Shown here: positions 1,316 through 23,923 of the stretch, in pieces
Numbering within the stretch: position 1 is the first letter of the stretch
How the letters are laid out: the number at the start of each line of letters is the position of its first letter
Virus record (IMG/VR): IMGVR_UViG_3300019996_000012
Coordinates: 1 to 38,814 of that record
Length of the DNA: 38,814 nt
DNA from: a virus
Lineage: Duplodnaviria > Caudoviricetes
Strand: one strand, 5' to 3'
The notes under the pieces: generated by a model
Told to the model about the DNA's origin: nothing
Databases searched by the model: none
The model's input: the letters and a program-made list of their open reading frames with translations, nothing else
Program-made: the position numbers and the translations under genes

Positions 1316-1654
1316 TTAACTATCAAACAATCCTAAACAATTCATGATCTTGCACATGGTTGAAAAAGTAGGATTTTTACTTTTCAACGCATGATATAAA
1401 GTAGATCTTGAAAGAGAATTTTTCTTTGACGCTTGATATTTATTTACTACTTCTAAATGCGTTTCAAGAATTTCAACAGCTGATTTTACGTCATTATCTT
1501 TCATACAATCCAAAACAGCCGCAAGTATGAACTTTTTGTCCAATAAATTCTGGTCTGGATCATGTGGAAGCACTTTTGCGTCAGATCTCAAGGTTCTAAT
1601 AGGTGTTTTCCCGATAGATCTTCTTGGCTTTCTTAATGTCTTTGTCTTGACCAT
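1316..1654 (-). CDS. Addiction-module antidote (HigA-like HTH antitoxin)
   Basis: C-terminal HTH 'LSRSTLYHALKSKNPTFSTMCKIM'. Strong AGGAGG RBS 8 nt before the ATG. Lies downstream of and overlaps a RelE/HigB-like toxin gene. Confidence 0.85.
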   Translation of the reverse strand: MVKTKTLRKPRRSIGKTPIRTLRSDAKVLPHDPDQNLLDKKFILAAVLDCMKDNDVKSAVEILETHLEVVNKYQASKKNSLSRSTLYHALKSKNPTFSTMCKIMNCLGLFDS

Positions 1655-1889
1655 TTTTATTTCCTCCTAACAACAATAATATTTTTTCTTTTGGAAAGTA
1701 ACAATAATAGACTCTTTTACCATCCGTCCATTTAAGTTCCCAAACACCGTCATCCAAATTTTTACACAAACCAAAAAAGCCACCATCCCTAATCATCTTT
1801 ACGCGCTTTTCTATCTGTGCCTTATCTTTTGGAGTCTGTTCATTGAACCAATTTAAAAACTCGTAAGATTTCGCTATCTCATATTCCAT
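1596..1889 (-). CDS. Type II toxin, RelE/ParE superfamily (HigB-like addiction-module killer)
   Basis: 'F..WF......K.QIEKRV..I..G.FG..KNL.DGVWELKW..GKRVYY....ILLLLGGNKNGQDKDIKKAK' signature. The likely start is ATG 1889 (MEYEIAKS) rather than TTG 1925. Confidence 0.9.
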   Translation of the reverse strand: MEYEIAKSYEFLNWFNEQTPKDKAQIEKRVKMIRDGGFFGLCKNLDDGVWELKWTDGKRVYYCYFPKEKILLLLGGNKNGQDKDIKKAKKIYRENTY

Positions 1890-1895
1890 AACTAT

Positions 1896-1989
1896 ATTGT
1901 GCCATGCAAGGAACGTTTTCTGCAAGAAATTTTACGCAAAAAAAACTTAAGTTAATTTTCTTGCACCATATATCCCATATATATAGAGT
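1896..1989. promoter_or_regulatory. Divergent sigma70-type promoters for higBA (-) and parA (+)
   Basis: + strand: TTGCAC(1961-66)-17-TAGAGT(1984-89). - strand: TTGCAG(1925-20)-18-CACAAT with upstream TG. A 9-bp inverted repeat TGCAAGAAA(1921-29)/TTTCTTGCA(1957-65) overlaps both -35 boxes. Confidence 0.55.
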
Positions 1990-2018
1990 ATATGCTTTCT
2001 ATATAGGGGGCATATATG
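1967..2018. repeat. TATATA/CATATA repeat array upstream of parA (candidate centromere/operator)
   Basis: catatatcccatatatatagagtatatgctttctatatagggggcatatatg: about 5 ATATA-type cores at roughly helical spacing. Confidence 0.55.
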
Positions 2019-2651
2019 ATTATTGTAATCGGTGGAATAAAAGGTGGGCCTGGAAAAACCACAATAGCTACTAATCTTACGGTACTTAGGTCACAAAAAG
2101 GAAAGAAAGTATTGCTTGTTGATGCTGACGAACAGAAATCAGCTTCTGTTTGGTCTGCTCAAAGGGATGCTTTAGCTATTTCTTCTCCATGGACAACTAT
2201 CCAATTATCAGGAAGAGCTGTTCATACTGAACTTCAAAAACTTTCTGCTCATTATGACGACATCATTGTTGATACTGGTGGCAGAGACAACTCATCTCAA
2301 AGAAGCGCGTTAACTGTTGCTTCGGTGTTTCTTGTTCCTTTTCGTCCGCGTTCATTAGATATATGGACAATCGGCGATGTTGCACAATTGATTTCAGAAG
2401 TTAAGGTGATCAATCCAAAATTGCTTTGTTATACTGTTATCAATCAAGGTGATGCTTCTGGAAATGATAACAAGGAGGCTAAAGAAATCTTATCTGAATG
2501 TGAACATTTCAAATGTTTCCCTAACTTCTTAGGTAATCGAAAGTCTTTTGCATCGGCCACAGCTAAGGGTCTTGCGGTATGTGAGAACAAGCCTTTGGAT
2601 AAAAAATCAATAATCGAAATGAATATGCTTTACGAAATGATATATAAGTAA
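2016..2651 (+). CDS. parA: ParA-family partition ATPase (short, type Ib-like)
   Basis: Deviant Walker A GGIKGGPGKTT, A' 'VLLVDADEQ', Walker B 'YDDIIVDTGG'; 211 aa with no N-terminal HTH. Confidence 0.92.
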   Translation: MIIVIGGIKGGPGKTTIATNLTVLRSQKGKKVLLVDADEQKSASVWSAQRDALAISSPWTTIQLSGRAVHTELQKLSAHYDDIIVDTGGRDNSSQRSALTVASVFLVPFRPRSLDIWTIGDVAQLISEVKVINPKLLCYTVINQGDASGNDNKEAKEILSECEHFKCFPNFLGNRKSFASATAKGLAVCENKPLDKKSIIEMNMLYEMIYK

Positions 2652-2712
2652 TATATAGGCTGCATATGTGGTCTATATATGTGGTATATATCCAATATAT
2701 AGGGTCTGTATG
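2639..2712. repeat. Second TATATA repeat array between parA and its partner gene
   Basis: gatatataagtaatatataggctgcatatgtggtctatatatgtggtatatatccaatatatagggtctgtatg: about 6 cores similar to the upstream array. Confidence 0.55.
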
Positions 2713-2718
2713 GTTGTA

Positions 2719-2952
2719 ATGAAAAAGATAGAAAAACCGTCTGAAAAAGATCGTGAGGATTTTATTTCCAAAGGGAGTCAAACGCCTGCCGATGTCAAAA
2801 AAAAAGATGAAAATGAATGGACAAATATTCTGATACGCATTAAAAAAAGCGCTCTCAAACAAGTTGATGAGAGGGTTGAAAGTCGTATGGGTATGTGGAG
2901 AACAGGCTGGATTTTGGAAGCCATTCAGGAGAAATTAGATGCCGACATATAG
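2719..2952 (+). CDS. Small ParA partner, probable ribbon-helix-helix centromere-binding protein
   Basis: 77 aa directly after parA: flexible N-terminus 'EDFISKG', then a beta strand 'TNILIRI' and two helices ending 'WILEAIQEKL'. ATG 2719 is preferred because the upstream extension is the TATATA array. Confidence 0.7.
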   Translation: MKKIEKPSEKDREDFISKGSQTPADVKKKDENEWTNILIRIKKSALKQVDERVESRMGMWRTGWILEAIQEKLDADI

Positions 2953-6084: not shown

Positions 6085-6357
6085 ATGGCAAATAAAAAAA
6101 ATCCACGTGTACATGTTACTTTACCTAAAGAGGAATATGAGATGTTATGTCTTGAAGCAAAGAAAAAACACATGAGTGTGTCAAGCATTCTAAGAATGCT
6201 TGCTATCGTTCATGTTGAGGAAGAGGAAGATAAATGGTTAGCTATTAAGGCTGAAGCAGCTGAAGAAAGATGGATCGCCGGGGGTAGAAAAACATATACG
6301 CATGAGGAAGTATGCAAGAGTTTCGGTATCAAATCGAATATTCCGAAGAATCGTTAG
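6085..6357 (+). CDS. Antitoxin (RHH/CopG-like, RelB-type)
   Basis: 'KKNPRVHVTL..EEYEML...AKKKHMSVSS', C-terminal 'TYTHEEV'; precedes and overlaps relE. Confidence 0.8.
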   Translation: MANKKNPRVHVTLPKEEYEMLCLEAKKKHMSVSSILRMLAIVHVEEEEDKWLAIKAEAAEERWIAGGRKTYTHEEVCKSFGIKSNIPKNR

Positions 6358-6581
6358 ATTTTCTTAAATCATCGCCTTCAGGTATACGTATAAAGATAAT
6401 TAGGGCAATAGAACAAAGGCTTTCAACAGATCCAAACCATTATGGAAAACCGATGGCTAGAGAATATGTTGGGTATCGAAGATTGAGAGCCGGAGACTGG
6501 CGAGTGATATATAAGGTCATAGAAAATAAATTGATTGTTTTGGTTATCGATATTGATCATAGAAAAGATATTTATGATTAA
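6312..6581 (+). CDS. relE: Type II toxin RelE/StbE family
   Basis: 'YQIEYS...L..DP..YGKPM....GYRRLRAGDWRVIY.......V.VIDIDHRKDIY'. Confidence 0.92.
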   Translation: MQEFRYQIEYSEESLDFLKSSPSGIRIKIIRAIEQRLSTDPNHYGKPMAREYVGYRRLRAGDWRVIYKVIENKLIVLVIDIDHRKDIYD

Positions 6582-7961: not shown

Positions 7962-8215
7962 TATTGCTCCGCGGTTCAGGACCGGGCTAGCTTGGGTTTT
8001 TCCCCTCACTGTTCGATAAACATGGGTTTACCTTATTTCACATGGTTTGGTTTTCCAGTGGGGGGACTTTTAAATTTAGTTGCAATAAGCAACACAGTGT
8101 CGCCGACTATCGGGCGTAAAATAAACCTCCCGTATTCCAGAGTGTTTACGGATGTGTGGGGCTTCGGCCCCGCATAATTATGGGCGTACTGCATTGTCGC
8201 CAAATGCAAAAGGAA
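7962..8215 (+). ncRNA. Structured RNA leader upstream of the scaffolding gene
   Basis: GC-rich intergenic tract with stems 8001-8011/8056-8066, 8079-8093, 8130-8151, a cUUCGg hairpin at 8155-8172, two hairpins with GUCGCC loops (8096-8108, 8190-8208) and two GGGCGUA elements (8112, 8182). Confidence 0.6.
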
Positions 8216-8218
8216 ATA

Positions 8219-8944
8219 ATGACACAAGAAATAATACAAGAGGAAGTCAAAGCTCATGAAGAGCCAAGCAACCAACCGCAAGGTGAAGCACAGCAAGCCG
8301 AAGAAGCAGCTCAAGAAACTAGAAAAGAGCCTTCCAAAAGCAACGCTGAAATCAATTGGGAACAAACTCGTCAACTTCTTCAAATGCAAAAGCAAAAGAT
8401 TGAAGATTTGGAAAGTCGTCTTGTTGAAAGGGAAAAGCCTTCACAAGTTGATGAGAAAGATGAGTTTTCAGAATTAGACCCTGACGACTACTTAACGGTA
8501 GGGAAAGCGAGAAAATTAGCTGAAAAACTTGCCGAAAAAAAAGCAACAGAAGCAGCTAAAAAGATCGTTCAGGAGTATTCTCAGCAGCAAACTGTTCAAA
8601 ATGATGAACACAGAATGCGTTCCAAACACGATGATTATGACTTTGTGGTTGAAAACTTTGCGATTCCTCTTATCAAAAACGACCCCGCTTTAGCATATCA
8701 GATTCAACATTCCAAAAATCCTGCGGAAACTGCATATAAACTAGGAAAACTCTCAGATTCATATGAGGAGTCAACAATGAAACAACAGACGAGTCCTAAA
8801 GCCGAAAAGGTACTTAAGAATGCCTCTAGGCCTGTTAGCGCAAATGCTGTTGGGTCTTCTCTAAAAAATCAATCAGAAAATTTTGCTAAAATGTCTCCGC
8901 AAGAAATATGGGCAGAGTCTCAGAAGTATGCTAGGAGGGCTTAA
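8219..8944 (+). CDS. Probable capsid scaffolding protein
   Basis: Acidic coiled-coil protein immediately before the major capsid gene; AAGGA RBS before ATG 8219. Confidence 0.75.
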   Translation: MTQEIIQEEVKAHEEPSNQPQGEAQQAEEAAQETRKEPSKSNAEINWEQTRQLLQMQKQKIEDLESRLVEREKPSQVDEKDEFSELDPDDYLTVGKARKLAEKLAEKKATEAAKKIVQEYSQQQTVQNDEHRMRSKHDDYDFVVENFAIPLIKNDPALAYQIQHSKNPAETAYKLGKLSDSYEESTMKQQTSPKAEKVLKNASRPVSANAVGSSLKNQSENFAKMSPQEIWAESQKYARRA

Positions 8945-8956
8945 TGAGGACTTTTA

Positions 8957-8994
8957 ATGACAATTACAACAATGAATCAGCTACCACCGCCGGT
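8957..8994 (+). CDS. Major capsid protein exon 1 (MTITTMNQLPPP-GT)
   Basis: GAGGA RBS, ATG 8957. Unspliced it hits TAG at 8999; spliced to 9714 it gives MTITTMNQLPPPVQQWFDNVLLSRP. Confidence 0.88.
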
Positions 8995-9713
8995 AAAATA
9001 GAGTGTGCCGGCGTTAAATTGGAGGTAATTACTTGGAAAGTCTAAGCATAATATGATACCATTGTTGTACCTAATTAGGTAAAGCAAAGGAAAATATTAT
9101 GTATGATAACCAGAAGGAAGCACTTTGTGCGTATGCGTATATAGCCGGTATTATTGATGGAGAAGGTTCAATTATGATCACAAAATCAGTTTGTGGTTAT
9201 AAAAGAAAAACGCCCAGTTACACACCAAGAATTAAGGTGGGTAAGACTGAAAGACAATGTTTAGATTTCATTGTCAAGCATACTGGAATAGGTACTATTA
9301 CGTGCGAAGGTGTACGAAAATCACACAGAGATGGTTGTAATAGAAAAGGATTTTTTGTGTGGCAGGTTCATTCTTTAATAAACTGCCCAAAGTTCTTAAA
9401 ACTTATTATGCCATTTTTGGTCTTAAAAAGACCACAAGCGAAACTTTTACTGTCGTATTGCAAAGGCTTTAATAAGCAAAAGAAATGCATGGATGGGGTT
9501 CCTGTGATCGTACGAGCTTTTCGTGAGGAGACGTATCACAAAATGCGTAAGCTCAATGGAAAGAAGGCACCTGCAACGACTAAACCCTCTAACATCCGAG
9601 AGGATGAAGTGATAGTCTAAACTTATGGGAAACCATAAGAGAAAAACTCGAAGCGGTTTTTCCGCCTAGCAATAGGTTAGTAGGTCAGTGAATCGACCGA
9701 AAGTAATAGTAAG
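8995..9713 (+). mobile_element. Group I self-splicing intron (719 nt) in the major capsid gene, encoding a homing endonuclease
   Basis: The exon ends in U8994, paired to G9007 in P1 (CGCCGGU/GCCGGCG). P3 UUGGAGG 9019-25/CCUCUAA 9586-92. P7 GACUA 9578-82/UAGUC 9613-17. P8 CAUCC-GAGA-GGAUG. P9 CUUAUGG-GAAA-CCAUAAG. Terminal G9713. P10 UGU 9004-06/ACA 9714-16. Confidence 0.92.
9099..9620 (+). CDS. Intron-encoded single-motif LAGLIDADG homing endonuclease
   Basis: 'AYIAGIIDGEGSIMI' motif and 'FL..IMPFLVLKRPQA.L' C-terminal helix. The 3' end runs through the intron core elements P7/P3/P8. Confidence 0.93.
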   Translation: MYDNQKEALCAYAYIAGIIDGEGSIMITKSVCGYKRKTPSYTPRIKVGKTERQCLDFIVKHTGIGTITCEGVRKSHRDGCNRKGFFVWQVHSLINCPKFLKLIMPFLVLKRPQAKLLLSYCKGFNKQKKCMDGVPVIVRAFREETYHKMRKLNGKKAPATTKPSNIREDEVIV

Positions 9714-10626
9714 ACAACAATGGTTCGACAATGTGTTATTAAGTAGGCCAATGCCGAAATTAATACATAAACAAATGGCGATGAAGAAAGAACTTCCTGA
9801 GAATTCAGGGAGAATAGCTAGATACCGTAGGTATACAAACTTACAAACAGCAACGGTGCCATTACCAGATTCAGGGCTCACACCCCCAGGTCAGGTACTT
9901 AATGCCATCGACATTGATGCTAGACTGGATTTTTATGGTACTTATGTGACTATAACTGACCAAGTAGCATTCTTGAATCAAGACCCAGTCTTGAATCAAA
10001 CAGTATCTCTCTTAGCTCAGTCTATGAGAGAAACTGAAGACGAATTGATTAGAAATATGCTCCAATCCACAGCTGCAGTTATTAACTGCGTTGGTGGTAC
10101 GAACGGAGATAACCCAACGGAATTGAGCCGTACCGATATTGACACTACGATCCAAGCTTTGCTCGGTAACGACGCAATGATGATTTCTGACAATATCGAA
10201 GGTTCTCTGAAATTTGGTACAGCACCAGTCAGAGAGGCTTTCTGGGGTATGATGAAGACTGATATTATTGATGATTTGGAAGCTGTAACAGGCTTTATTT
10301 CACAAGCTCAGTATCCATCAAATATGAATGTGTTAAATGCGGAATGGGGTTCTGTTTCGAATATCAGGTTCTTGTATAGCTCTAAAGGCTCACAGACCTT
10401 GAATAGTTCGTTAAATGGTAACACTGTTTACAACACATTCGTTACTGGTCAAGAAGCTTATGCGATTGTTGAGCTTACACAAGCTACAGCATCGTTTATT
10501 TATACACCACCAGGTGGACCTACCGATCCACTTCGCAGGTTGCAATTAGGTGCATGGAAGATGGCGCAAGTGCCTCGTATCTTGAATGACGCGTGGATAT
10601 TTAATCTTCGCTCAACACACTCATAG
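9714..10626 (+). CDS. Major capsid protein exon 2 (N4-gp56 family, HK97 fold); spliced product 316 aa
   Basis: 'K.LP.NSG.....RRY..L.....PL..G.TP.G','YGTYVTITD','AEWGSV.NIRF','TDPL.....GAWK' motifs. Confidence 0.92.
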
Positions 10627-10636
10627 GAGGTAATAC

Positions 10637-21340: not shown

Positions 21341-23923
21341 ATGAGCGGCAAAGACCCTATTCCACAAGCACAAGCATATCAGGGCGTACGCGCCACAACT
21401 CCAGCGAACTTAATTACAGCAAGTAGAGATCCAGGAAATTCCGATAAAAAATATCCGCTCGGTACTCAATGGCTTAATAAATCAACTCAAACACTTTTCA
21501 CTCTAGTAGGCACAACAAACGGTCTTCCGGTTTGGGATGCGGGTGGAGTAGCTGCGGCATCAACATCAGCCTTAGGAACAGTCAAATTATCCACTCTAGC
21601 ACAATTAGAAGCAGGTACAGCTCCATCAGGTTCTGTCGTTCCTCTCGCAAATGACGTTTTCACATATGTACAAAGCGTGGTCCTTGCGGGTGCAAACATC
21701 GCTCAGACAGGTGTGACAGGTATAACTAACCTATCAACTGATGCACAAGCAGTTGCCGGAACAGCGACAGTTCCAGGCGTAACAGCTTTAGCAGTTCAAC
21801 CATCTAACTTAGCAGCGGTATTTGCTGCTCCTCCAACAATTGGTAACACAACACCAAGCACTGGAGCATTCACAACTTTAGCTTTCACAACTGCAACTGG
21901 TACAGCAGGTGGTACTTGGGCTTCTGGCGGTACAGCGATTTCAATTGGCGCTGATGCTACAACAGACACCATAAACATTGGTACTGGTGCCGCAGCGAGA
22001 ACAATCCATATCGGCGATTCGACACAAGCCAACTTAGTAACGATTGGTTCTGCTACTGGAGCGGCGGCATTAACTCTAAAAGCTGGTACAGGTAACTTCG
22101 TTTTAACAACTGCTGCAACTACAAACGTCACAATGGCCGCAGCTCAAACGAGTGGTACTTTTACAATCGGTGGTACAGCTCAAACAGGTACAATGACACT
22201 TGGTTCGTCCTCTGGAACGAATATCGTTGCTATCGGCGCAGGAGCTGGAGCAACAACCGTTAATATTTCTAACGCTAACACGGCTGGAGCAATCAACGTG
22301 GGTGCTGGTTTTACAAGTGGTACAATCACAATTGGTGGTACTGCTCAAACCGGTAACATGGTTCTGGGTTCAAGTTCTGGATCTAATGCGCTTTCGATTG
22401 CAGCAGGGTCAGGAGCCACCACATTGACTTTAGCAAACGTTCAAACAGGTGGATCTGTTGCCGTAGGTAACGGTATGACAACCGGTACTATTACTTTTGG
22501 TGGTACTGCACAGACTGGTACTATTACCTTAGGTTCATCAAGCGGAACGAATAGCGTGCTTATAGCTAACGGTTCAGGAGCTTCAACCGTTTCAATCGCA
22601 AACGTTCAGGTTGCTGGTGTTGTTAATATTGGTACAGCAATGACAACTGGTACCCTAAACATTGGTTCTACAGCTGCCGGTACAGGTACTATCACATTTG
22701 CTGGCGGTACTGGTGCTCAAACGATAAATATTGCCAATTCGACCGGAGGGAAAACGGTCGCGATAGCCACAGGTGCCGGAGCCAACATAGTTTCCTTAGG
22801 CTCGAATAACGGTGCTTCTTCATTAACATTGAAGGCTGGTACTGGTAACTTCTCGTTAGACGGTGCAGCTGCAACAACTTATGCAGTCGGCGCATCTACA
22901 ACTACAGGTACAATCACGATAGGTGGTACTGCCCAGACAGGTACTTTAACTCTAGGTTCATCATCAGGAACTAACATCATTGCAATTGGTGCGGGCGCTG
23001 GTGCTACAGACCTTCAGTTAGTTAACAGTCAGCTTGCTGGATCCGTTGAAATGGGTACAGCGATGACCACCGGTACTATCACTTTGGGTGGTACAGCACA
23101 GACAGGAACTATTACACTCGGATCTTCATCCGGTACAAACAGTGTGCTAATAGCTAACGGCTCGGGAGCGACAACTCTTGCCTTAGCTAACGTACAAACG
23201 GCTGGTAGTGTTGCAGTTGGTACAGGTATGACAACCGGTACTATTACTTTTGGTGGTACTGCACAGACTGGTACTATTACCTTAGGTTCATCCTCGGGTA
23301 CAAACAGTGTTCTTATTGCCAATGGTTCGGGTGCTACAACACTTTCTATGGCCAACGTTCAAGTTGCTGGTGCTGTGAATATTGCAACAGCCATGACAAC
23401 AGGTAACATTGCTATTGGTAGTGCTCAAACTTCTGGTACTTTGACCATAGGTTCAACTGCCGCTGGTACAGGTGCTACAAGAATAGCGGATGGTACAGGC
23501 GCGCAGACAGTGACCATCGCTACCGGAGCCGGAGCTAAAACGGTTACTTTGGGATCTACTAACTCAACATCTACTTTAACACTTCAATCCGGTTCTGGAA
23601 ACGTTGTTGTTACAGGTGGTAACTTAAAAATCAATAGTGCTGGAAAAATGCTCCAGGTTCACTCAGGAGCTGTAACAGACTTTATCGGAACTGGTGTTTT
23701 GACAGCGGGTACTCAAACTATTGCAAATACAAATATTGCAACTGGTGACGTGATTTTACTTACGAGATTAACTGTAGCTGCTTCTACAACTCTTGGTGAA
23801 CTAACCTACACAATCAGTAACGGCGCAAGCTTTACTGTAACAAGTGTTATCTTAGGAACACCAGGAAGCACGCAAACAGGTGACGTAAGTACTTATGCTT
23901 ACATGATTGTTCGTCCAGCATAA
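21341..23923 (+). CDS. Long tail fibre/adhesin-like protein, Gly/Thr/Ala/Ser repeat beta-solenoid
   Basis: 860 aa; six ~55-aa repeats 'TGTITIGGTAQTGTITLGSSSGTN...'; N-terminal 'RDP...DKKYPLGTQWLN'. Confidence 0.75.
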   Translation: MSGKDPIPQAQAYQGVRATTPANLITASRDPGNSDKKYPLGTQWLNKSTQTLFTLVGTTNGLPVWDAGGVAAASTSALGTVKLSTLAQLEAGTAPSGSVVPLANDVFTYVQSVVLAGANIAQTGVTGITNLSTDAQAVAGTATVPGVTALAVQPSNLAAVFAAPPTIGNTTPSTGAFTTLAFTTATGTAGGTWASGGTAISIGADATTDTINIGTGAAARTIHIGDSTQANLVTIGSATGAAALTLKAGTGNFVLTTAATTNVTMAAAQTSGTFTIGGTAQTGTMTLGSSSGTNIVAIGAGAGATTVNISNANTAGAINVGAGFTSGTITIGGTAQTGNMVLGSSSGSNALSIAAGSGATTLTLANVQTGGSVAVGNGMTTGTITFGGTAQTGTITLGSSSGTNSVLIANGSGASTVSIANVQVAGVVNIGTAMTTGTLNIGSTAAGTGTITFAGGTGAQTINIANSTGGKTVAIATGAGANIVSLGSNNGASSLTLKAGTGNFSLDGAAATTYAVGASTTTGTITIGGTAQTGTLTLGSSSGTNIIAIGAGAGATDLQLVNSQLAGSVEMGTAMTTGTITLGGTAQTGTITLGSSSGTNSVLIANGSGATTLALANVQTAGSVAVGTGMTTGTITFGGTAQTGTITLGSSSGTNSVLIANGSGATTLSMANVQVAGAVNIATAMTTGNIAIGSAQTSGTLTIGSTAAGTGATRIADGTGAQTVTIATGAGAKTVTLGSTNSTSTLTLQSGSGNVVVTGGNLKINSAGKMLQVHSGAVTDFIGTGVLTAGTQTIANTNIATGDVILLTRLTVAASTTLGELTYTISNGASFTVTSVILGTPGSTQTGDVSTYAYMIVRPA
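22472..23292 (+). repeat. Exact 68-bp direct repeat (22472-22539 and 23225-23292) within a 753-bp internal duplication
   Basis: ggtatgacaaccggtactattacttttggtggtactgcacagactggtactattaccttaggttcatc is present twice; LKAGTGNF also recurs at the 753-nt offset. Confidence 0.9.

What the first reader, a model, noticed from the sequence alone, without database searches (positions are those of the whole stretch)
8957..10626. Major capsid gene split by a group I intron carrying a LAGLIDADG homing endonuclease
The ORF track gives a headless capsid (9688). The real start is ATG 8957, and splicing U8994 to A9714 restores MTITTMNQLPPPV-QQWFDNVLLSRP (316 aa). The hallmark helices are visible: P1 with the U.G wobble (CGCCGGU/GCCGGCG), P10, P3, P7 (GACUA/UAGUC), GNRA-capped P8 and P9, and a terminal G. 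Classical phage group I introns mostly sit in DNA-metabolism genes and carry GIY-YIG or HNH nucleases. A LAGLIDADG intron in codon 13 of the most abundant virion protein is uncommon and makes capsid production depend on splicing.
Basis: partly seen in the sequence, partly recalled or inferred. Interest (0 to 1): 0.85.

Follow-up and report, generated by a model that had tools for sequence, protein, structure and literature searches.

The report
Capsid intron with self-guarding homing endonuclease
A 719-base insert with the fold of a self-splicing intron splits this phage's main coat-protein gene and carries a DNA-cutting enzyme gene, an arrangement already known from other phages, but just in front of the enzyme gene sits a conserved mirror-image copy of its likely target, where the enzyme is predicted to bind and switch off its own gene.

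Summary
Confirmed: 8995-9713 is a group I intron in codon 13 of an N4-gp56-type capsid gene. Removing it gives 316 aa, the length of intronless relatives. P1, P3-P9 all pair, and P3, P6 and P10 covary across relatives. The ORF 9099-9620 is a single-motif I-CreI/I-MsoI-type LAGLIDADG protein overlapping the ribozyme core at both ends. No RNA run was available. The claimed rarity fails: mycobacteriophage LittleE has a spliced capsid intron with an I-CreI-like ORF, and 19 of 62 related loci have capsid introns. It is significant in 15 of 17 introns at this site, has an 8-base spacer in 14 of 17, and overlaps a predicted -10 box. It is likely an autorepression operator like that of T4 I-TevI (about 0.55). 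Relatives, not this window, show Ala-Ala read-through tails and coreless mini-introns. The scan found such tails, mini-introns and operator mimics before on other DNA. Verdict: new variant of a known kind, moderate interest.

The parts
8957..8994 (+). Capsid exon 1 (12 codons + 2 nt), ends in the U of the U.G pair
8995..9713 (+). Group I intron, 719 nt, after coding nt 38; in-frame stop two codons after the splice-site codon begins (V-K-stop); terminal G9713
9004..9013 (+). Internal guide sequence: P10 (9004-9006 with 9714-9716) and P1 (9007-9013 with 8988-8994)
9019..9042 (+). 5' core strands: P3 (9019-25), P4 (9033-36), P5 (9040-42)
9046..9102 (+). P5 extension; helix 9046-54/9094-9102 hides the endonuclease start codon in the long RNA
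   Evidence: predicted fold
9054..9062 (+). Candidate extended -10 box (TG-A-TACCAT) of an internal promoter; below the consensus scan's threshold
   Evidence: inferred
9058..9086 (.). Junction mimic: 9058-9071 is the exact 14-nt reverse complement of the spliced junction; arms 9063-9070 and 9079-9086 form an inverted repeat with an 8-base spacer (candidate operator)
9099..9620 (+). Single-motif LAGLIDADG endonuclease ORF, 173 aa; first codons form P5', P4', P6; last codons form P6', P7, P3', P8, P7'
9570..9639 (+). 3' core strands: P6' (9570-72), P7 (9578-82), P3' (9586-92), P8 (9593-9606), P7' (9613-17), P9 (9622-39)
9714..10626 (+). Capsid exon 2 (N4-gp56-type major capsid protein)

Best explanation
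The capsid gene is split at codon 13 by a 719-base insert with a complete group I fold that very likely splices itself out to restore the 316-aa capsid, and the I-CreI-type enzyme encoded inside likely spreads the intron by cutting intron-free alleles and is predicted to repress its own gene by binding a target-like inverted repeat in front of it. Steps. (1) Shown: boundaries, frame restoration, helices with covariation, enzyme fold. (2) Inferred from group I chemistry (established knowledge): guanosine attack at U8994 in P1, then ligation at G9713 guided by P10; ribosomes on unspliced RNA stop after V-K, before the core, making a 14-residue peptide. (3) Predicted: on the long capsid transcript the enzyme's AUG is buried in a 9-bp helix so the core can fold; a short transcript starting near 9069 from an internal promoter lacks the helix's 5' strand and can be translated. 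(4) Inferred, about 0.55: the enzyme is a homodimer whose target has 8-bp arms around an 8-bp spacer centred about 6 bp upstream of the insertion site; the intron destroys the right arm, and a symmetrised copy at 9063-9086 lets the dimer sit on the promoter without being a good cleavage site.
For: 316 aa after splicing, as in intronless homologues. In 17 of 21 same-strand-ORF introns that could be parsed, P3 pairs 111/119 (permuted mean 62.9, max 88; the 5' strand was the best of 6 offsets) and P6 51/51 (permuted mean 30.9, max 42); P6 is AGG/CCU in the window and GCC/GGC in L001, inside the ORF at both ends. Ten ORF-less family introns: 90% of cells paired, 13 of 27 pairs changed on both sides, above all 500 shuffles and slid controls. 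P10 first pair A-U in 6, U-A in 8, unpaired in 1 of 15. In 2 of 15 same-site introns a stop codon lies across the 3' splice site, so exon 2 cannot be read from inside the intron. Enzyme: D20-G21-E22-G23 and K110 invariant in 25 homologues, pLDDT 84, best folds I-CvuI/I-CreI. AUG unpaired 0.00 in the long RNA against 0.40 from 9069; SD 0.47 against 0.88. Mimic: 14/14 in the window, p 0.005; the inverted repeat scores p<0.05 in 15 of 17 codon-13 introns, spacer 8 in 14 of 17, arm columns conserved 0.71-1.0 (one 0.5) while the spacer varies; its left arm is TATACT in 11 of 17, with TG in 7; one arm position is a mismatch in 12 of 17 because the left arm keeps the -10 A and the right arm keeps the junction's C, which suits DNA recognition better than an RNA stem. 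In the window and L001 the -10-like box sits 6 nt further upstream and the left arm is the exact junction complement.
Against: No splicing, cleavage or binding was measured. Rfam and my model score the intron below significance cut-offs. The window's own promoter candidate has 8 of 12 consensus bases and is not called. The exon target is only weakly symmetric: 3.2/8 at centre -6, 3.07 at -3, about 1-2.5 elsewhere, at most 5/9 in the window. The mimic's variable base does not track each locus's own exon significantly (10 of 15 agree, p 0.23). At other insertion sites the mimic is mostly absent: p<0.05 in 4 of 21 introns overall, 2 of them at this site. The arms also pair as RNA (97 Watson-Crick and 14 G.U of 136 cells). 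Spacer range 7-9 was chosen after seeing the sequences, and the 17 introns are related by descent.
Confidence: 0.8

Rival explanations
1. Intron and homing are as above, but the inverted repeat works as RNA: a hairpin in the P5 extension whose left arm can be captured by the 3' exon or the spliced junction, coupling enzyme translation or 3' splice-site choice to splicing.
For: The left arm pairs with the spliced junction at -21.7 and with the 3' exon at -15.2 kcal/mol, against -10.3 with its own right arm; the region folds with z -3.2; L386 keeps all 8 pairs only through G.U.
Against: A recurrent mismatch inside the stem in 12 of 17, a fixed 8-base spacer, and the junction-like arm is the sense arm in most relatives, which cannot pair with the exon.
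Confidence: 0.25
2. The mimic is a fossil or a by-product: the enzyme gene once invaded the intron at a copy of its own target (idea recalled from the T4 sunY intron, not checked here), or an extended -10 box happens to be the complement of Val-Gln-Gln codons.
For: TG-n-TATACT boxes also occur without a partner arm in introns at other sites (L291, L292, L305); weak symmetry of the target.
Against: The right arm, which has no promoter role, is conserved at 0.79-1.0 in 7 of 8 columns while neighbouring spacer columns vary, although the ORFs have diverged strongly.
Confidence: 0.2
3. No splicing: a headless capsid is translated from GTG 9688 or ATG 9751 and the insert is a dead element.
For: The frame is open for 13 codons upstream of exon 2; a database gene call of 283 aa exists (P0001).
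Against: Exon 1 is kept with its ribosome-binding site and has invariant residues (I3, T4, L9, P10, P12, V13); all helices are intact; same-site introns L282 and L383 have a stop across the 3' splice site.
Confidence: 0.03

Closest known systems
Mycobacteriophage LittleE capsid intron (PMC3706429; passages seen)
   Same: Probable group I intron in a major capsid gene, U at the 5' site, G at the 3' end, about 175-aa ORF related to I-CreI; splicing shown there.
   Different: LittleE's ORF is on the opposite strand; here it is on the same strand, overlaps the core at both ends and has a junction-like inverted repeat upstream.
T4 td intron and I-TevI (PMC2988022, PMC3073962; passages seen)
   Same: ORF overlapping P6/P7, start region hidden in a hairpin on long transcripts, internal promoter overlapped by a homing-site look-alike, in-frame stop just inside the intron.
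   Different: I-TevI is a monomeric GIY-YIG enzyme with an asymmetric operator; here a predicted LAGLIDADG homodimer and a symmetric 8+8+8 repeat; host gene is the capsid.
Intron-rich MCP genes of crAss-like Delta/Zeta phages (PMC7886860; passages)
   Same: Major capsid gene as a hot spot for several group I introns.
   Different: Unrelated, larger phages; no splice-level anatomy given in the passages seen.
I-CreI, I-MsoI, I-CvuI single-motif LAGLIDADG endonucleases
   Same: Profile match E 1e-8 to 1e-7 and fold match TM about 0.6-0.7.
   Different: About 20% identity; those come from organellar rRNA introns (recalled); target here only weakly symmetric.

Membership tests
Group I intron | U.G pair at the 5' splice site in P1 | tested here: met
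   U8994.G9007 in a 7-bp helix
Group I intron | Terminal G and P10 with the 3' exon | tested here: met
   G9713; 3-bp P10, first pair covaries in 14 of 15
Group I intron | Core P3-P4-P6-P7-P8 with covariation | tested here: met
Group I intron | Rfam RF00028 gathering score | tested here: not met
   20.9 bits against 50, E 0.009, 3' half only; the core is split by the ORF
Group I intron | Guanosine-dependent self-splicing | not testable with these tools
   no RNA holder listed
Group I intron | Subgroup (IA-IE) by subgroup models | not testable with these tools
   no such models on hand; P2 and P7.1 are absent by inspection
Single-motif LAGLIDADG homing endonuclease | One LAGLIDADG helix with acidic residue; alpha-beta-beta-alpha-beta-beta-alpha fold | tested here: met
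   Pfam 21.2 bits is under the 23.1 cut-off
Single-motif LAGLIDADG homing endonuclease | Pseudo-palindromic target at the insertion site | tested here: inconclusive
   best centre -6 with 3.2/8 symmetric positions
Single-motif LAGLIDADG homing endonuclease | Cleavage of the intronless allele, homodimer | not testable with these tools
   no assay; no complex prediction was run
I-TevI-type autorepression operator | Homing-site look-alike overlapping the enzyme's promoter | tested here: met
   15 of 17 codon-13 introns; TATACT in the left arm in 11 of 17; the window's own promoter is weak
I-TevI-type autorepression operator | Bound but poorly cut by the enzyme; represses transcription | not testable with these tools
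   needs binding, cleavage and reporter assays

The most novel reading that the evidence does not exclude
A LAGLIDADG homodimer acts as its own repressor through a symmetric 8+8+8 operator whose left arm doubles as the extended -10 box, so the operator reveals the enzyme's target geometry (centre about 6 bp upstream of the insertion site). This intron is one member of a capsid-intron community that polices its own costs: start-proximal introns like this one stop ribosomes at once, downstream ones end the truncated capsid in a protease-tag-like Ala-Ala, and coreless mini-introns are removed together with a neighbouring ribozyme, whose own intron therefore needs no tag (0 of 10 against 17 of 18).
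Probability: 0.5. Interest if true: 0.68.

Novelty: new variant of a known kind. Interest (0 to 1): 0.45.

Why it matters
Its value is as a compact test case: a 173-aa enzyme, a 24-bp candidate operator conserved in 15 of 17 relatives and a predicted target make autorepression by a LAGLIDADG enzyme directly testable; the review passages I read show it only for I-TevI. It is also the natural control for the family's Ala-Ala tails (0 of 17 at codon 13), and it shows that gene callers truncate these capsids.

Tried and rejected
No RNA holder listed for 8150-10630; DNA contigs of four runs showed no join that skips exactly the intron. Rfam gathering search of the window: 0 hits. A core model from 10 ORF-less introns gave no significant hit and no second intron in the window (motif scan agrees). 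A direct locus search with the ORF alone found nothing. Host not identified: GTDB scan gave 3 contigs at 51-57% identity binned in archaeal MAGs, not taken as hosts; named phages match at under 28%; the ParA search was uninformative; cluster look-up gave no organism. A general own-junction mimic in all same-strand-ORF introns was not supported (4 of 21). A palindrome centred on the junction GTAC was rejected (1/9). Ribosomal hopping over the relatives' mini-inserts was considered and rejected by inspection: no matched landing codon, and P1/P10 covary. Apparent introns at coding nt 830-875 and 903 in a divergent capsid clade were dropped as alignment artefacts before counting. Literature searches for natural intron-encoded degradation tags, coreless mini-introns and LAGLIDADG autorepression gave no listing that describes them; I saw listings only for most hits, the library lacks most subscription papers, and I read no supplements (those of the Bastillevirinae and Jug-phage papers may list further capsid or LAGLIDADG introns). 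PMC11835236 passages had nothing on phages.

Full report
Setting. The window is a whole 38.8-kb contig of a tailed phage: a P22-like portal gene runs over both ends, with a terminase, a likely scaffold ORF (8156-8944, no family match) and a major capsid gene. Close capsid relatives are named N4-gp56 family by a source. The host is unknown.

Exon 1 (8957-8994) and exon 2 (9714-10626) join to 316 codons without a stop, and 89 of the 120 homologues listed are 314-319 aa with an exon-1-like start. A spliced alignment places the cut after U8994 and after G9713. Rfam misses the intron at its gathering score and gives 20.9 bits on the 3' half, and my core model does no better, so membership rests on helices and covariation. 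All window helices pair (P1 7, P3 7/7, P4 4/4, P5 3/3, P6 3/3, P7 5/5). In the 17 of 21 same-strand-ORF introns whose 3' core could be parsed, P3 pairs 111/119 and P6 51/51, far above permutations. Ten ORF-less relatives show changes on both sides in 13 of 27 pairs. The first P10 pair is A-U in 6 and U-A in 8 of 15 introns at this site. Splicing itself was not observed: no RNA run is listed.

The enzyme. 9099-9620 encodes 173 aa with one LAGLIDADG helix; a profile of 25 homologues matches I-MsoI and I-CreI and the model (pLDDT 84) matches I-CvuI and I-CreI. PHROGs labels its best family HNH, which the fold contradicts. The ORF starts in the P5 extension and ends in P7', so both ends code and fold at once; P6 changed at three pairs between the window and L001 while staying paired. 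Such overlap is described as core creep (PMC3073962, passages).

Bases 9058-9071 are the exact reverse complement of the spliced junction (p 0.005 against shuffles). A search for introns at the same site returned 29 matches, 19 of them true codon-13 capsid introns; with earlier loci and the window this gave 17 distinct ones. Scored with the window's junction 8-mer and its complement around a 7-9-base spacer, 15 of 17 have p<0.05 and 14 of 17 have spacer 8; arms are conserved and the spacer is not. In 11 of 17 the left arm reads TATACT, 7 with an upstream TG, so it doubles as a likely extended -10 box; this forces a mismatch against the right arm in 12 of 17, and the right arm follows the junction instead. 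In the window and L001 a -10-like box lies 6 nt further upstream and the left arm is the perfect junction complement. Folding predicts the AUG buried in the long RNA and partly free in an RNA starting at 9069. This is the layout of the T4 td intron, where I-TevI binds a homing-site look-alike over its promoter (PMC2988022, passages). Against it: the window's promoter is not called by the consensus scan, the exon target is only weakly symmetric (best centre -6, 3.2/8), the mimic does not significantly track each locus's exon (p 0.23), the motif is mostly absent at other sites (4 of 21), the spacer range was set after inspection, and the loci are related. I put the operator at about 0.55, an RNA role at 0.25 and a fossil at 0.2.

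Family context (relatives, not this window). 19 of the first 62 capsid loci carry at least one full intron, and 17 insertion sites were seen (the middle's print was cut, one search used the saved table). A core-motif search blind to the host gene hit this capsid family in 56 of 120 loci. Read-through of unspliced RNA ends in Ala-Ala in 17 of 18 downstream introns not directly behind a mini-insert and in 11 of 12 mini-inserts, but in 0 of 10 introns directly behind a mini-insert, 0 of 4 start-proximal introns and 0 of 17 codon-13 introns. In the blind set, 22 of 69 clear exon frames end in Ala-Ala against 2 of 138 control frames (112 matches examined, 43 set aside as ambiguous; some loci overlap the first set). 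That such endings are protease tags of the tmRNA type is recalled knowledge and untested. Twelve distinct 39-67-base inserts at coding nt 264/265 keep P1, P10, a terminal G and a covarying closing helix but no core, and all 12 lie 21-50 bases upstream of a full intron's start (7 were found with patterns that demanded the G, 5 by protein search; three neighbours are seen only in part). I reached these readings before consulting the scan's notes, which report the same three phenomena on other DNA; those notes are unchecked AI notes and are not counted as support.

Comparison with what is known. A spliced capsid intron with an I-CreI-related ORF is published for LittleE (PMC3706429, passages), and MCP introns for crAss-like phages (PMC7886860, passages). 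LAGLIDADG ORFs are rare in the Bastillevirinae set (1 intron; PMC11878797, passages) and GIY-YIG, HNH and others are called typical of phage introns (PMC3984707, passages); Jug phages have 17 LAGLIDADG genes (PMC12363816, passages). So it works like, and by the testable features is, a mobile group I intron. The symmetric operator for a LAGLIDADG enzyme was not found in one search (listings only).

Verdict. Real and correctly described; ordinary as stated; a new variant because of the conserved symmetric target mimic. Interest 0.45.

Noticed in passing
L032:2218-2256, L035:1129-1184, L036:2428-2485, L051:1951-2008, L053:487-545, L139, L148, L154, L155, L157-L159: Coreless 39-67-base capsid inserts with P1, P10, terminal G and a covarying closing helix, each 21-50 bases upstream of a full group I intron; L051 (A-U) and L148 (C-G) lack the U.G at the 5' site.
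   Followed up: partly
capsid introns; loci L162-L281: In-frame read-through ends in Ala-Ala in downstream introns and mini-inserts but in 0 of 10 full introns directly behind a mini-insert, suggesting the two are removed together.
   Followed up: partly
L187, L189, L212, L223, L271; L290, L299; L297: Further short inserts at coding nt 259-264 ahead of full introns, some only about 30-40 bases and without an Ala-Ala tail; L191, L238 and L254 look similar in another capsid type.
   Followed up: no
L029, L032, L035, L038 (second intron), L040, L051, L059: Many capsid introns at other sites carry their LAGLIDADG ORF on the opposite strand, as in LittleE.
   Followed up: no
L291:P5 extension, L294:P5 extension: At site 264 a degenerate sense copy of each locus's own junction follows a TATACT/TATAAT box (p 0.010 and 0.015), differing as the two 3' exons differ; L293 at the same site is not significant.
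   Followed up: partly
L053 (site 432), L049, L037, L058, L158: Introns with a variant P7 (GUAGC/GGUGCU-type instead of GACUA/UAGUC) in the same family.
   Followed up: no
L054:2217-3000: Intron with what looks like two P4-like segments in tandem before its same-strand ORF, possibly a nested or composite intron.
   Followed up: no
window 1316-1925 (-), 6085-6581 (+), 2016-2952 (+): Two apparent toxin-antitoxin-like gene pairs (by inspection only) and a ParA-family gene with a small partner, suggesting a plasmid-like prophage state.
   Followed up: no
window 21341-23923: 860-aa Gly/Thr/Ala-rich repetitive protein, probably a tail fibre.
   Followed up: no
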